Part shown: positions 14,750 to 46,720 of the stretch, piece by piece
Layout: each line of letters opens with the position of its first letter
Numbering within the stretch: position 1 is the stretch's first letter
Assembly (NCBI RefSeq): GCF_009914755.1
Contig: NC_060926.1
DNA length: 64,000 bases
Reading direction: 5' to 3' (one strand)
Source of the DNA: the human T2T-CHM13v2.0 reference genome, Homo sapiens
The notes under the pieces: generated by a model
The model's input: only the letters and a program-made list of their open reading frames with translations
What the model was told of the DNA's origin: nothing
Databases searched by the model: none
Made by a program: the position numbers and the translations under genes

Positions 14750-15250
14750 TCTTCATTAATATTTGTTGAGTGCTTGCTCTATGCCAGATACTATACTAGG
14801 CAATGGGGATAAGCTCTTGAGCAAAATCAGACATGGTATTTTTCATGCATTATCTTATTTAATAGGTCTATTAATTAGGCACAATTATTTTCCCATTTTG
14901 TAGATGAGAAATTGTGACATTGGAAGCTTAACTAAATTGCTCATGATCATACAGCCCATAAATTGGTGTGATATAGCGGTTATTTGAACCCAGGAGTGAC
15001 TCCAAAGTTATTAACCATTACATTGTATAATTTTAGAAGAAAAGAGATTAAGTTAGGCCTAAAAGGTAACATCTATTGGCAAGTGCAGCAGATACTAATA
15101 GATGCACCAGCATCCTCCATGGACTGGGCATTACTACACACCAGACACTGTTTAACATGTGGAATATATGTTTTCTCTAATCTTCACAGCGATTCTAGTG
15201 GTAGGTATTATTATCCTCATTTTACAGGTGAGTCAACAAAGGCTCAAGTA
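14750..15250 (-). mobile_element. Cluster of L2 and MIR fragments
   Basis: atatttgttgagtgctt...ctatgccag (L2 tail); cccattttgtagatgagaaa and cctcattttacaggtgag (MIR cores). Confidence 0.6.
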
Positions 15251-42200: not shown

Positions 42201-43114
42201 ATATTGTCCTTTAAACAGTATCTTTATACCAGAGACTTTTTCCCTGGTCAGCAAATTATTTGTCAAGTAATCTAAATTTTTCAAATATAGATTTTTAAAA
42301 AAAATTTTGGAGCATCAAGTTTATCATTAATGTAAGACTAATATTTAAAGATATAGATCCACTTTGTTTTAAGAAAATGGTATCAGTACAAAATCAGAAA
42401 AACAAACTTCAAAGTAAACTAAGGGAGCTTACTTTCCCTTGAAAATAACCCACTCCTCTGACTCCTCTAGTGTGCAACTGATATTATAAACATGCTTTTA
42501 AAGGAATTTCATTGTTGCATGGTAGGGGGTGAAATGGTTTTGTGGACGCCTCTATCCCTTTGATGAGTCTGGTCATTTTCTGGCATTCACTATACACGTT
42601 TGTGGTAATAAGAACTGATGGTACTGTCTTAATCTTGTTAATCCAGTTGACTACTTTGCATGTCATTGGCCTTGCTAATAGAGTGAGAGAATTGTTAGAT
42701 TACTGATTCTTTACTTTGTTTGGATCATGGACTTTTTTGAGTACTTTATATAAATTATGGAACTTTCATCCCAGAAAAAAATGCATATATATACAACTTT
42801 TTTGTTTTGTTTCGCATGGGGGTCTCATACCCCTTGGAATAGATGATTTCCCAGTTCCCTGCTATTTCTTAAAGCTTTTATTTTTTGTCACCAGTAATTA
42901 TATACTATTGTATTATGATGTAGTTACAAAATTAGCTTTTTGAATCTCATTCAAATAAATGTCAAGCAAATGTGTTATTTTTAAGGAAAACTTTTGGGGC
43001 GAAGTAGAAAACTAAACAAGCACTGCCAGGAAAGGTTAAATAAGCAGCTGTGGTAGAAAACATAAATAAACAGAAAGTCTCTAGCTGTCTTGAAATAGAA
43101 TGAAGTCTGTAGCA

Positions 43115-43280
43115 ATCAGTGGCTCTCATTGTGGGGACAGTTTTGGTTATCACAAATAGGGGAGGGGGCATTTAGTGGGTGGGAGCCAGGGATGCTAAAT
43201 GTTTTGCAATGCTTAGAACAGTCTCACACAGCAAATAATTGTCCTGCCTAAAATATCAGTGCCCTTTGACAAATGCTGGT
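43115..43280. mobile_element. MER20-like hAT DNA transposon fragment
   Basis: ggcatttagtgggtgggagccagggatgctaaatg...acagtctcacacagcaaataattgtcctgcc. Confidence 0.55.
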
Positions 43281-43819
43281 CAGTGTGAGATGGGGGCTAG
43301 CATGACTGAAATAGCTTTTTTAAACTGAAGTTATTTTCCTTTTTAAAAATACTATTAAACATAAAATACCCCTTTCCATTAATTCCCTTTTGGAAAAATC
43401 ACAAACAGAAACAAATGATACGCTGTCTCAATGTGGGTTACTCAAAGTATGCCCATCTTCTAGCAGCTGTTAGCAGCACGTGAGGGCAACGTGCTGTGTC
43501 TACTGGGATCTGGGGAAGTAAAGAGTCAACTAATGTTCTTATACAGAGTGTTAGTTTGCTATTTTTTCTTTTTACTTTAAAACATTTTCACACCTTGATC
43601 TAGTACTATTAAAGAAAATTTCAAGGTGATTTTACATTTATTCTCATCATCTTTGTGCAATTGTATAGTCACCTGCTTGTTTTGGCTTACTATCTGAGAG
43701 TGTATTATAGTTGAGATGGTATTTCAACATCTAACCATCTTTTCAGTAACCAAACACTTTTATATAGAACCATCTGCCGAAAAAGAAGTCTGAGCAGTTG
43801 AGATGGAATGGAATTCAAG

Positions 43820-44044
43820 GTATAGAGGCAAGAGGATGGGTTTTGGAATCAGACCTGAAGTGGAATTTCAGTTTTGATACTGCATGTCATGTGACCATAA
43901 GCAAATTGCTGAATCTCTTTGACTTGGTAGCCTCATCTGTAAAATGAGGATGATAATGTCTACCTTTATGTTTGTTTTGAAGAGTAGAGTTACTATATGT
44001 CTGGCAGGGAGTAGGCCTTCCATAAATGGGTGCCCTATAAAGAA
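43820..44044 (+). mobile_element. MIR SINE directly abutting the VNTR
   Basis: ttttggaatcagacctg...tgtgacc...tgaatctct...cctcatctgtaaaatgaggatgataat...ataaatg. Confidence 0.75.
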
Positions 44045-44446
44045 TAATGATGATGATGATGAGGAGGAGAGTTCTGTAGCTACTGAACCTTGCTAAAAGC
44101 AACCAGATGATGATGATGATGATGATGATGAGGACGAGGAGAGTTCTGTAGCTACTGAACCTTGCTAAAAGCAACCAGATTATGATGATGATGAGGAGGA
44201 GGAGGAGGAGGAGAGTTCTGTAGCTACTGAACCTTGCTAAAAGCAACCAGATGATGATGAGGAGGAGGAGGAGGAGGAGGAGGAGGAGAGTTCTGTAGCT
44301 ACTGAACCTTGCCAAAAGCAACCAGATGATGATGATGATGAAGGAGAGTTCTGTAGCTACTGAACCTTGCCAAAAGCAACCAGATGATGATGATGATGAT
44401 GATGAAGGAGAGTTCTGTAGCTACTGAACCTTGCCAAAAGCAACCA

Positions 44447-44486
<40 letters not shown>

Positions 44487-44658
44487 AGTTCTGTAGCTAC
44501 TGAACCTTGCTGAAAGCAACCAGATGATGATGAGGAGGAGGAGGAGGAGGAGGAGGAGAGTTCTGTAGCTACTGAACCTTGCCAAAAGCAACCAGATGAT
44601 GATGATGATGATGATGAAGGAGAGTTCTGTAGCTACTGAACCTTGCCAAAAGCAACCA

Positions 44659-44707
<49 letters not shown>

Positions 44708-45387
44708 AGTTCTGTAGCTACTGAACCTTGCTGAAAGCAACCAGATGATGATGAGGAGGAGGAGGAGGAGGAGGAGGAGGAGAGTTCTGTAGCTACTGAA
44801 CCTTGCTAAAAGCAACCAGATGATGATGATGAGGAGGAGGAGGAGGAGGAGAGTTCTGTAGCTACTGAACCTTGCCAAGAGCAACCAGATGATGATGATG
44901 ATGAAGGAGAGTTCTGTAGCTACTGAACCTTGCCAAAAGCAACCAGATGATGATGTTGATGATGATGGAGAGTTCTGTAGCTACTGAACCTTGCTGAAAG
45001 CAACCAGATGATGATGATGATGAGGAGGAGGAGGAGGAGGAGGAGAGTTCTGTAGCTACTGAACCTTGCTAAAAGCAACCAGATGATGATGATGATGAGG
45101 AGGAGGAGGAGGAGGAGGAGGAGGAGGAGGAGGAGGAGAGTTCTGTAGCTACTGAACCTTGCCAAAAGCAACCAGATGATGATGATGAGGAGGAGGAGGA
45201 GGAGGAGGAGGAGAGTTCTGTAGCTACTGAACCTTGCTGAAAGCAACCAGATGATGATGATGATGAGGAGGAGGAGGAGGAGAGTTCTGTAGCTACTGAA
45301 CCTTGCTAAAAGCAACCAGATGATGATGATGATGAGGAGGAGGAGGAGGAGAGTTCTGTAGCTACTGAACCTTGCCAAAAGCAACCA

Positions 45388-45429
<42 letters not shown>

Positions 45430-45527
45430 GGAGAGTTCTGTAGCTACTGAACCTTGCCAAAAGCAACCAGATGATGATGATGATGAAGGAGAGTTCTGTA
45501 GCTACTGAACCTTGCCAAAAGCAACCA

Positions 45528-45564
<37 letters not shown>

Positions 45565-45602
45565 AGTTCTGTAGCTACTGAACCTTGCTGAAAGCAACCA
45601 GA
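44045..45602. repeat. Compound VNTR/minisatellite: 22 x 39-bp core GAGAGTTCTGTAGCTACTGAACCTTGCY(A/G)AAAGCAACCA interleaved with (GAT)n(GAG)m microsatellite spacers
   Basis: Units counted directly from the sequence. Cores are near-identical (CTAA/CCAA/CTGA variants) and spacers vary in length. Confidence 0.97.
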
Positions 45603-46499
45603 ATGCATGGCATGCTCATATGCCTGGATTCCACAGCAAGGAATGGTCTGCAGGATCAGGTCAGGAGGAGATGTTTCAGGGCATTTTCAGTTGGTATTTA
45701 GAGTATGTTTTCCCATGAATTAGCTATACTGTGGATTAGTTTTTTTAGTCCTTTAAGCCATAGAGTTCAATTACATTATAGACTAAGTAGGTCAGTGAGG
45801 ACTAGCTTGGGAACAGAATTTCCTCTTGAATGTTGAACACAGAGCTTTGATGTGGCATAGCCCCAGTAAAAAGGCCCGTTGTCTAAGTGTTTATCACATG
45901 GAACTGACAGGTTGTGGAGGTTACTAGTACTTACAGATATTCTCATTTTCATACTAGTTATTTGTAATTCAGCCCCATTCTCTGCGGTTTACATGAGGGC
46001 TTTGTTCCAAAATTCATTCAAAGGTTGTTTGATACTGGAAAACTCAGAGGAAATGTATAAATTTTATGTGATGATTAGGAGCTAGGTTTGCTCTCAAAAA
46101 GGCCTACTTTACCCTATATGGTTTGATTCAGAAAGAGTTAACCCAATTTAATTAAGCAAATATGATTATGTGGAGCTCCCACTGTGGGCTAAGCAGGAAC
46201 TTTTCTGGGTGCATAGGCACAGTGATATTAATATAATAGTGAATAAGACCTTCATAAAACATTTACAATCCATAAAGCAACTATACCTTTAATTAGAAAG
46301 TAGTCATTATAAGTGCTACACTTTTTAAAATAAACTGCTTTTGGATTGAAGGAAATATCATTTCTGTACCGATTTATGAAAGTGCCAAAGATATATTGTT
46401 GGATGGGATAAAAGTAAATTACCTGTGTAGTATTTTTCCCATTTAAAAACTGTTAGTATTCATAGAAAACATATCAAATATGTGACAGTTTGGGAGACT

Positions 46500-46720
46500 G
46501 AACATCATGGTAAGAATGAGGGCTTTGGAGTCAGACTGCATGGTTTTGAATCCCAGCTTGGCCTCTTACTGGAGATGTGAACTAGGTCAAGTGACTTAAC
46601 CTTTCTTTGCTTTTTTGCGTCACCTATAAAATGTACATAATAATTGCACTTACCTCTGAAGGTTATTGTGAGGATTAAATGAATTACCACATGTCAGGTG
46701 CTTAAAACAGCACATAGAAA
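46500..46720 (+). mobile_element. MIR SINE
   Basis: ggctttggagtcagac...gaatcccagct...caagtgacttaacct...ggttattgtgaggattaaatga. Confidence 0.8.

What the first reader, a model, noticed from the sequence alone, without database searches (positions are those of the whole stretch)
44045..45602. CRISPR-like repeat-spacer array in INSIG2 intron 1: 22 hairpin cores separated by variable trinucleotide spacers
Seen: a 39-bp core (GAGAGTTCTGTAGCTACTGAACCTTGCYRAAAGCAACCA) occurs 22 times with almost no divergence. Each copy is separated by a different-length microsatellite, (GAT)n(GAG)m, (GAT)nGAAG or (GAT)nG. So there are two nested mutation layers: minisatellite copy number and ~22 independent slipping microsatellites. 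Inference: this is a young, hypervariable locus that short reads cannot resolve, ~4.3 kb downstream of the TSS of a lipid-homeostasis regulator. It could be a hidden cis-regulatory or expansion-prone allele.
Basis: partly seen in the sequence, partly recalled or inferred. Interest (0 to 1): 0.8.

Follow-up and report, generated by a model that had tools for sequence, protein, structure and literature searches.

The report
Known polymorphic compound minisatellite in INSIG2
This is a real 1.5-kb tandem repeat in the first intron of the human INSIG2 gene, built from 22 near-identical 39-bp cores each joined to a small triplet repeat; published surveys already list it as varying in length between people, and it has nothing to do with CRISPR.

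Summary
They are separated by (GAT)n(GAG)m, (GAT)nGAAG or (GAT)nG tracts of 19-54 bp. The core occurs nowhere else in the 3.1-Gb assembly.

"CRISPR-like" is only a visual analogy. This is a human intron, the spacers are microsatellites, and a single core folds only weakly.

The array is a compound minisatellite (VNTR) with higher-order structure. Spacer type and core variant are linked (permutation p = 8e-5). The block [E-c, K-c x1-2, D-g] recurs 4 times and covers 14 of 22 units. It abuts an old interspersed-repeat fragment.

It is already catalogued. Lu et al. 2021 list hg38 chr2:118092813-118094428 with a reference length of 1615 bp and a mean of 1493 +/- 390 bp over 18 assemblies. Lu et al. 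2023 list its length as a lead eQTL for INSIG2 in two GTEx tissues, both with negative slope. It is absent from their Data S4, the file cited for fine-mapping.

The likeliest reading is a largely neutral, hypervariable VNTR. A causal regulatory role is possible but unproven.

The parts
44045..45600 (+). The whole compound minisatellite: 22 units of [triplet tract + 39-bp core]. Unit length is 58-93 bp (mean 70.7), giving 858 core bases and 698 spacer bases.
   Evidence: the only tandem repeat in the window with TRF score >=150 (all 9 of 9 rows)
44250..44522 (+). Higher-order block 1 (units 4-7): E-c, K-c, K-c, D-g
44523..44743 (+). Higher-order block 2 (units 8-10): E-c, K-c, D-g
44819..45006 (+). 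Higher-order block 3 (units 12-14): E-x, K-c, D-g. Unit 12 carries the only private core substitution.
45319..45600 (+). Higher-order block 4 (units 19-22): E-c, K-c, K-c, D-g
43838..44009 (+). Fragment of an old interspersed repeat that ends just 5' of the array (profile envelope reaches about 44039). From memory it looks like a MIR SINE. The profile's similarity does not reach the 39-bp core.
   Evidence: 7 dispersed matches on other chromosomes at 73-85% identity. A profile built from those 7 copies hits 43838-44009 with E = 7.7e-27.
45297..45659 (+). Exon of another INSIG2 RefSeq transcript. It begins inside the core of unit 18 and runs through units 19-22 plus 59 unique bases. It is 363 nt long, contains 39 ATG triplets, and folds as RNA at -102.8 kcal/mol (z -4.1).
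   Evidence: hub annotation table for the exon; for its content
45660..45665 (+). GT splice-donor context (CAG|GTCAGG) at the end of that exon

Best explanation
This is a locus-private compound minisatellite (VNTR) in intron 1 of human INSIG2. I infer that it arose when a unique 39-bp segment next to a triplet microsatellite, at the 3' edge of an old SINE-like fragment, was duplicated in tandem.

It now changes at two nested levels. First, whole units and multi-unit blocks are gained and lost by unequal exchange or by slipped pairing between units. The 16-of-18 self-complementary segment in every core lets any two cores pair, which would help this. Second, the (GAT)n and (GAG)m tracts inside each unit slip by triplets.

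Frequent exchange keeps the cores almost identical. The array length varies widely among people.

It has no relation to CRISPR, encodes no protein and matches no known RNA family. Its length correlates weakly and negatively with INSIG2 mRNA in two tissues in one published screen. I take that correlation to be most likely linkage to nearby variants, so the array is largely neutral.

Shown: the anatomy, uniqueness in the genome, block structure, published length variation and published association. Inferred: the origin, the exchange and slippage mechanism, and neutrality.
For: - 22 cores; 0 expected by chance.
- 22 forward and 0 reverse matches in the whole 3.1-Gb assembly with up to 2 mismatches, and 0 for the reversed control pattern.
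- A 97-base query and the right-flank query match only this locus.
- Only 3 variable core positions in 858 core bases.
- Spacer type is tied to core variant: mutual information 0.83 bits with permutation p = 8e-5 for the preceding spacer, and 0.81 bits with p = 3e-4 for the following spacer.
- All 4 of 4 D-g units are preceded by K-c (p = 0.002). All 4 K-runs are also preceded by E-c or E-x, which happened in 0 of 200,000 permutations. 14 of 22 units lie in four such blocks.
- TRF sees local higher periods of 93 and 168 at 97% matches.
- Two adjacent cores pair as DNA at -16.6 kcal/mol, z -5.1, with 0 of 200 shuffles as good.
- The array abuts a dispersed-repeat fragment.
- Published length variation: reference 1615 bp, mean 1493.0 bp, SD 390.3 bp, n = 18, VST 0.0045 and 0.0031 in the two tables. 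The catalogue's informative 21-mer hits 44119-44139 with 1 mismatch, including the array's only GAC interruption, and all 44 loose matches lie inside the array.
- No ORF above 54 aa.
- No Rfam match reaches a gathering score.
- Only 1 CpG in 1556 bp.
Against: - The same locus is a significant lead length-eQTL for INSIG2 in Esophagus_Mucosa (p = 1.46e-6, slope -0.219, q = 4.0e-4) and Artery_Tibial (p = 6.4e-5, slope -0.168, q = 9.2e-3). Full neutrality is therefore not established.
- A RefSeq exon starts inside the array (hub table), so at least part of it is transcribed into a spliced INSIG2 RNA.
- The eMotif table (Data S3) was cut when stored, so motif-level associations at this locus could have been missed.
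- The mechanism of unit turnover is inferred from one haplotype's structure and was not observed.
- No ape sequence was available, so neither the age nor the single-unit origin was tested.
Confidence: 0.88

Rival explanations
1. The array is a causal, length-dependent cis-regulator (attenuator) of INSIG2. Longer alleles would lower transcription, for example because long (GAG)n polypurine tracts and pairable cores in intron 1 impede elongation, or because about 20 evenly spaced CAGATG E-box-like sites recruit factors.
For: - Lead eVNTR with a negative slope in 2 tissues.
- 6 of the 8 polypurine or polypyrimidine runs of >=25 nt in the 64-kb window lie in the array, the longest being 44 nt.
- 20 CAGATG sites in the 1.5-kb array against 18 in the remaining 62.4 kb.
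- The array lies 4.3 kb from the TSS.
Against: - It is significant in only 2 tissues, neither of which is liver or adipose. The searches turned up no other row for this locus in that table.
- It was listed as eqtl = False in the 2021 version.
- INSIG2 is absent from Data S4, the file the paper cites for fine-mapping, which was searched in full.
- The authors themselves state that most such associations are linked with nearby eQTLs (Discussion passage).
- The RefSeq functional-element rows in the hub table list no enhancer here.
- Only 1 CpG, so methylation has almost no substrate.
- The motif counts simply follow from repetition.
Confidence: 0.14
2. The array matters as part of an alternative first exon or promoter. 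Transcripts starting in it would carry a long, structured leader rich in upstream AUGs that would translate INSIG2 poorly, so array length would tune protein output.
For: - RefSeq annotates an exon at 45297-45659 that begins in unit 18 (hub table) and ends at a GT donor.
- That exon holds 39 ATG triplets.
- It folds at -102.8 kcal/mol, z -4.1.
- The INSIG2 start codon lies in the next exon (hub table: coding from 47729).
Against: - It is one of 8 transcript models, its support level is not known to me, and its 5' end inside a repeat may be a truncated cDNA or an ambiguous mapping.
- No CAGE or long-read RNA data could be consulted.
- No literature on such a human exon turned up.
- The mouse Insig2a and Insig2b primer sequences do not match the window with up to 3 mismatches, which is uninformative.
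Confidence: 0.07
3. It is a CRISPR-type repeat-spacer array or some other acquired-spacer memory system.
For: Only the outward layout: near-identical 39-bp direct repeats with a weak partial palindrome, alternating with variable segments.
Against: - The spacers are pure triplet microsatellites of 3 types, and only 16 of 21 are distinct.
- The host is a 3.1-Gb, 24-contig human assembly, and the hub table places the array in an INSIG2 intron with only lncRNA genes nearby.
- There is no ORF above 54 aa in the array.
Confidence: 0.001
4. It is the internal VNTR of a transposable element, a segmental copy, or an assembly artefact.
For: An old interspersed-repeat fragment abuts the left edge.
Against: - The core is absent elsewhere in the genome.
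- The repeat-family profile ends before the array.
- The right flank is unique.
- The same array is present in GRCh38 and in 18 independent long-read assemblies.
Confidence: 0.01
5. The array encodes a structured or small RNA, with core pairs acting as hairpin precursors, or a D/E-rich peptide repeat.
For: - Inter-core pairing is far stronger than in shuffles.
- One reading frame of the CA-variant core plus spacer reads as an acidic D/E-rich peptide.
Against: - The best Rfam hits are sR5 at 18.8-21.2 bits against a gathering score of 40.
- Every core has stops in two frames. The TA and TG variants add a stop in the third frame, and K and D spacers shift the frame. The longest ORF is 54 aa.
Confidence: 0.02

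Closest known systems
Intronic human VNTRs with internal sequence variation, such as the CACNA1C intron 3 30-bp repeat and TERT intron 6 VNTR6-1 (38-bp unit). I saw only titles and abstract openings for these, in the search listing.
   Same: An intronic, multi-kilobase-scale tandem array. It is length-polymorphic among people, has unit sequence variants arranged in patterns, and has been studied as a possible expression or splicing modifier.
   Different: Here each unit also contains its own long, pure triplet microsatellite of three types, so unit length ranges from 58 to 93 bp and TRF cannot assign one period. No disease or trait link was found for this locus in what I searched.
The danbing-tk VNTR catalogue entry chr2:118092813-118094428 (Lu et al. 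2021, PMC8275641; Lu et al. 2023, PMC10234305). I read supplementary tables and main-text passages.
   Same: It is this very locus. The offset from the gene start is 4361 bp against 4328 bp here, and the informative 21-mer matches at the GAC interruption.
   Different: The catalogue records length, a k-mer and eQTL statistics only. The unit anatomy, core-spacer linkage and block structure described here are not in the tables I saw.
WDR7 intronic 69-bp VNTR
   Same: An intronic unit of about 70 bp with hairpin potential and internal variants, reported as having expanded in humans.
   Different: I could not check any detail here. The nested triplet tracts are, as far as I recall, not a feature of that repeat.
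CRISPR arrays
   Same: Near-identical direct repeats of about 39 bp with partial dyad symmetry, alternating with variable segments.
   Different: The spacers are microsatellites and not unique captured sequences. The spacer lengths (19-54 bp) are not uniform. It lies in a eukaryotic intron, not a prokaryotic locus with cas genes. The variability comes from slippage, not acquisition.
Higher-order repeats of satellite DNA (concept recalled from general knowledge)
   Same: Unit variants recur in a fixed order, showing amplification of multi-unit blocks.
   Different: There are only four imperfect blocks covering 14 of 22 units, at the scale of hundreds of bases rather than megabases.

Membership tests
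Minisatellite / VNTR | Head-to-tail tandem copies of a unit of about 7-100 bp | tested here: met
   22 units of 58-93 bp, all on the + strand and contiguous
Minisatellite / VNTR | Array length or copy number varies among individuals | tested here: met
   Published table: reference 1615 bp, mean 1493.0 bp, SD 390.3 bp over 18 assemblies. This assembly has 1556 bp. I did not examine the assemblies themselves.
Minisatellite / VNTR | Single-locus array, not copies of a dispersed element | tested here: met
   Core 23-mer: 22 forward and 0 reverse matches genome-wide with up to 2 mismatches, all in this locus
Compound (nested) tandem repeat | Each long unit contains its own short tandem repeat whose count varies between units | tested here: met
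   GAT counts of 3-15 and GAG counts of 0-13 per unit. 16 of 21 internal spacers are distinct.
Higher-order repeat organisation | Unit variants recur in a fixed multi-unit order more often than chance | tested here: met
   The block E-c/x, K-c(1-2), D-g occurs 4 times and covers 14 of 22 units. The joint ordering was seen in 0 of 200,000 permutations. The other 8 units do not fit the block.
Expression-associated VNTR (eVNTR) | Array length significantly associated with expression of a nearby gene | tested here: met
   Lu et al. 2023 Data S2: INSIG2 in Esophagus_Mucosa (q = 4.0e-4) and Artery_Tibial (q = 9.2e-3), both with negative slopes. It was listed eqtl = False in Lu et al. 2021.
Expression-associated VNTR (eVNTR) | The VNTR, not a linked SNP, is the causal variant | tested here: inconclusive
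   INSIG2 is absent from Data S4, the file cited for fine-mapping, which was searched in full. The eMotif table (Data S3) is held only in part.
CRISPR array | Near-identical direct repeats of a few tens of bp (size range recalled) | tested here: met
   39-bp core x22. This is only a superficial match.
CRISPR array | Spacers are unique, non-repetitive sequences of nearly constant length | tested here: not met
   The spacers are triplet microsatellites of 3 types, 19-54 bp long, and several are identical
CRISPR array | Prokaryotic or viral genome with cas genes or a leader nearby | tested here: not met
   The window is part of a 3.1-Gb, 24-contig assembly, and the hub table places the array in a human INSIG2 intron. 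No ORF above 54 aa overlaps the array. I ran no cas profile search.
MIR SINE (left flank only) | Similarity to many dispersed genomic copies of one family | tested here: met
   7 matches on other chromosomes. A profile of those 7 hits 43838-44009 at E = 7.7e-27.
MIR SINE (left flank only) | Match to the curated family model | not testable with these tools
   No library of interspersed-repeat models is available. The name MIR is recalled from the look of the profile consensus.

The most novel reading that the evidence does not exclude
Array length and unit composition causally set INSIG2 dosage. Long alleles would dampen expression from the main promoter, through polypurine and pairable-core structures in intron 1 or through about 20 phased E-box-like sites. 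The array would also seed an alternative leader exon with 39 upstream AUGs that yields poorly translated mRNA. A highly multiallelic repeat that SNP studies cannot see would then contribute to human variation in sterol and lipid regulation.
Probability: 0.1. Interest if true: 0.55.

Novelty: already known. Interest (0 to 1): 0.2.

Why it matters
INSIG2 restrains SREBP processing and has a long, contested history in obesity genetics (general knowledge). A highly multiallelic repeat 4.3 kb from its promoter could therefore be an untyped modifier.

The locus has already been catalogued, genotyped from short reads in GTEx and tested. It gave only a modest association in two tissues that are not central to lipid metabolism, and it is absent from the file cited for fine-mapping.

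That grammar would let long-read studies score composition as well as length.

Tried and rejected
- Rfam scan of 43000-46600: only sub-threshold hits. sR5 scored 18.8-21.2 bits against a gathering score of 40, and mir-153 outside the array scored 21.9 against 54. Rejected as chance.
- Sigma-70 promoter and terminator scan: 10 'promoters' that are one unit motif repeated. This is a bacterial model and is irrelevant to human DNA.
- ORF listing under the standard code: longest 54 aa, so no coding reading.
- Mouse Insig2a and Insig2b exon primers taken from PMC5577246: 0 matches in the window with up to 3 mismatches. Uninformative.
- Test of whether the core comes from the neighbouring interspersed repeat: BLAST of both flanks against 7 family copies and a 7-copy profile. 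Similarity stops at about 44009 (envelope about 44039), and only chance-level hits (E about 2-10) touch the core. Seven old copies give limited power at the family's 3' end.
- Literature, main text: INSIG2+VNTR gave 10 papers, INSIG2+'tandem repeat' gave 38 with 20 listed, and INSIG2+minisatellite gave 1. From the titles and abstract openings listed, none concerns this array. The core 23-mer as a text string gave 0 papers.
- Supplements without INSIG2, among the files that could be read: Bakhtiari 2021 PMC8024321 (10 files searched, 1 unreadable), PMC11701250 (4 files), PMC13263140 (2 files, 14,393 characters), PMC13308034 (2 files).
- The Sulovari et al. 2019 PNAS paper on human-specific expansions is not held, so that catalogue was not checked.
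- I did not attempt ape or macaque orthologues, pangenome haplotypes, CAGE, ENCODE tracks or LD with INSIG2 SNPs, because none of these is reachable with the tools.
Full report
**1. What is in the sequence**

Reading 43800-45900 and parsing it shows exactly 22 copies of a 39-bp core at 44067-45600, all on the + strand. Each is preceded by a triplet tract, and the first tract starts at 44045. The array spans 1556 bp, made of 858 core bases and 698 spacer bases.

A 23-nt core segment matches 22 times with no mismatch. None is expected in 100 dinucleotide-preserving shuffles of the window.

The cores differ only at positions 28, 29 and 31, and every change is a transition. The variants are CA x10, TA x6 and TG x5, plus one CA copy with a G at position 31.

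I label them E, K and D:
- E = (GAT)n(GAG)m, 12 copies including the leading tract.
- K = (GAT)nGAAG, 6 copies.
- D = (GAT)nG, 4 copies.

Internal spacers are 19-54 bp long, and 16 of 21 are distinct. Units are 58-93 bp, with a mean of 70.7 bp. Three tracts carry single interruptions (GAC, TAT, GTT).

TRF cannot give the array one period. It reports overlapping rows with periods of 58, 61, 64, 82, 85, 93 and 168. All 9 rows scoring at least 150 in the whole 64-kb window belong to this array.

**2. The array is private to this locus**

The assembly holding the window has 3.1 Gb in 24 contigs. With up to 2 mismatches, the 23-nt core segment occurs 22 times forward and 0 times reverse, all in this locus. 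The reversed control pattern gives 0. A 97-base unit-plus-core query and the last core with 260 bases of right flank also match only here. So it is not the internal repeat of a dispersed element.

**3. Surroundings and likely origin**

The left flank gave 7 weak matches on other chromosomes at 73-85% identity. I fetched those 7 places. BLAST put the shared part at window 43889-44000. A profile built from the 7 copies alone hit 43838-44009 with E = 7.7e-27 and an envelope reaching about 44039.

An old interspersed-repeat fragment therefore ends just before the array. From the look of the profile consensus I recall it as a MIR SINE, but no repeat library was available to confirm the name. Neither the copies nor the profile align to the core. 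Seven old copies give limited power at the family's 3' end.

The right flank begins with GA, the same two bases that begin every spacer.

My inference is that a single [triplet tract + 39-bp unique segment] at the edge of this fragment was duplicated in tandem. The first three units are all E-type with the TA core, and two of them carry tract interruptions. TA is one transition away from both CA and TG. TA with an E spacer is therefore the simplest ancestral state. This is inference only.

**4. Internal order: blocks, not 22 independent spacers**

Writing each unit as spacer type plus core variant (t = TA, c = CA, g = TG, x = CA with G at position 31) gives:

Et Et Et Ec Kc Kc Dg Ec Kc Dg Et Ex Kc Dg Et Ec Eg Et Ec Kc Kc Dg.

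- All 6 K spacers precede a c core. All 4 D spacers precede a g core.
- The mutual information between spacer type and the following core is 0.83 bits (permutation p = 8e-5). With the preceding core it is 0.81 bits (p = 3e-4).
- All 4 Dg units follow a Kc unit (p = 0.002). All 4 K-runs also follow Ec or Ex, which happened in 0 of 200,000 permutations.
- The block [Ec/x, Kc x1-2, Dg] occurs four times and covers 14 of 22 units. The other 8 units (six Et, one Ec, one Eg) do not fit it.

So the array grew at least partly by copying multi-unit blocks. Within copied blocks the triplet counts have since diverged. For example, the K tracts hold 5, 7, 7, 5, 13 and 5 GAT, and the D tracts hold 12, 15, 6 and 11. 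'About 22 independent microsatellites' is too strong for the tract type, but fair for the tract length.

**5. Structure potential**

A single core folds only weakly as DNA. On the + strand it gives -4.9 to -5.5 kcal/mol, z from -1.75 to -2.17, with 5-11 of 200 shuffles as good. The - strand gives -4.2 kcal/mol, z -0.78. 'Hairpin core' is therefore generous.

An 18-nt segment of the core is 16 of 18 self-complementary, so any two cores can pair with each other. Two adjacent cores give -16.6 kcal/mol, z -5.1, with 0 of 200 shuffles as good. I infer that this pairing between units, together with plain unequal exchange, favours gain and loss of whole units.

Six of the eight polypurine or polypyrimidine runs of at least 25 nt in the window lie in the array, the longest being 44 nt. 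The array has one CpG.

**6. Not coding, no known RNA family, not CRISPR**

No ORF exceeds 54 aa. Every core carries stops in two frames, TA and TG cores add a stop in the third, and K and D spacers shift the frame.

The Rfam hits are far below threshold.

The CRISPR comparison fails on the defining point. The spacers are low-complexity triplet tracts of three types, not unique sequences, and the setting is a human intron (hub table).

**7. Already catalogued and tested**

Main-text searches found no paper about this array. I searched INSIG2 with VNTR, with 'tandem repeat' and with minisatellite, and the core as a text string. The supplementary tables did have it.

In Lu et al. 2021 (PMC8275641; supplementary files 1 and 2) the locus chr2:118092813-118094428 (hg38) has:
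- reference length 1615 bp, mean assembly length 1493.0 bp, SD 390.3 bp, n = 18;
- quality 0.992, which passes the paper's threshold of 0.96 (main-text passages);
- VST of 0.0045 and 0.0031 in the two tables, and eqtl = False.

Its informative 21-mer matches window 44119-44139 with one mismatch, including the array's only GAC interruption. All 44 loose matches fall inside the array. Its offset from the gene start is 4361 bp, against 4328 bp here. It is the same locus.

Divided by the 70.7-bp mean unit, the SD is about 5.5 units around a mean of about 21 (my arithmetic).

In Lu et al. 2023 (PMC10234305; Data S2) the same locus is the lead length-eQTL for INSIG2 in two tissues:
- Esophagus_Mucosa: p = 1.46e-6, slope -0.219, q = 4.0e-4.
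- Artery_Tibial: p = 6.4e-5, slope -0.168, q = 9.2e-3.

It is one of 2870 length eVNTRs in that study. INSIG2 does not appear in Data S4, the file the main text cites for fine-mapping, which was searched in full. Data S3 (motif-level associations) was cut when stored. Data S1 and the supplementary PDF were too large to read. Motif-level results for this locus may therefore exist that I could not see. The authors note that most such associations are linked with nearby eQTLs.

Four other papers' held supplements contain no INSIG2 row. One catalogue of human-specific expansions is not held.

**8. The annotated exon**

The hub table lists an exon of another INSIG2 transcript at 45297-45659. It starts inside the core of unit 18, covers units 19-22 and 59 unique bases, and ends at CAG|GTCAGG. 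It contains 39 ATG triplets and folds as RNA at -102.8 kcal/mol, z -4.1.

If real and abundant, it would be a poor leader for translating the INSIG2 ORF, which starts in the next exon. I could not assess its support. The literature probe and the mouse primer probes led nowhere.

**9. Verdict**

This is a genuine, hypervariable, locus-private compound minisatellite with higher-order blocks. The exchange and slippage mechanism is the best-supported account of how it changes (inferred).

The near-identity of the cores fits either youth or continuing homogenisation. There are 4 private point changes in 1556 bp. That would correspond to roughly 2.6-5.1 million years if the units evolved independently at assumed rates of 1e-9 to 0.5e-9 per site per year. 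Given ongoing turnover, this is not a real age.

A causal effect on INSIG2 is possible, and I put it at about 10-15%. The locus is already in the public VNTR catalogue with eQTL statistics, so the finding is not new. What is new here is only the detailed unit grammar.

Noticed in passing
window 43838-44009 (envelope to about 44039): An old interspersed-repeat fragment abuts the array's left edge. It matches a profile built from 7 copies on other chromosomes at E = 7.7e-27. A weaker relative lies at about 15175-15241 on the opposite strand. The name MIR is recalled and was not tested.
   Followed up: partly
window 45297-45659: A RefSeq alternative INSIG2 exon starts inside the repeat (unit 18). 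It carries 39 ATG triplets, has a strongly structured predicted RNA fold, and ends at a GT donor 59 bp past the array.
   Followed up: partly
outside the window (hg38 chr2:118032993-118033187, 118042420-118042496 and 118136412-118136524): The same published tables list three other VNTRs as INSIG2 eQTLs, in whole blood, lung and skin. The strongest is a motif association in whole blood at p = 3.2e-16. All three lie beyond the window's ends.
   Followed up: no
window 44045-45600: TRF splits this single array into many overlapping rows with periods of 58-168 because the unit length varies. TRF-based catalogues may therefore list it as several small repeats or under an arbitrary period.
   Followed up: no
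window 44119-44139: The catalogue's informative 21-mer differs by one base from this assembly's unit-2 spacer (a GAG where this assembly has a GAT, before the GAC interruption). This shows allelic variation in triplet composition even in the old edge unit.
   Followed up: no
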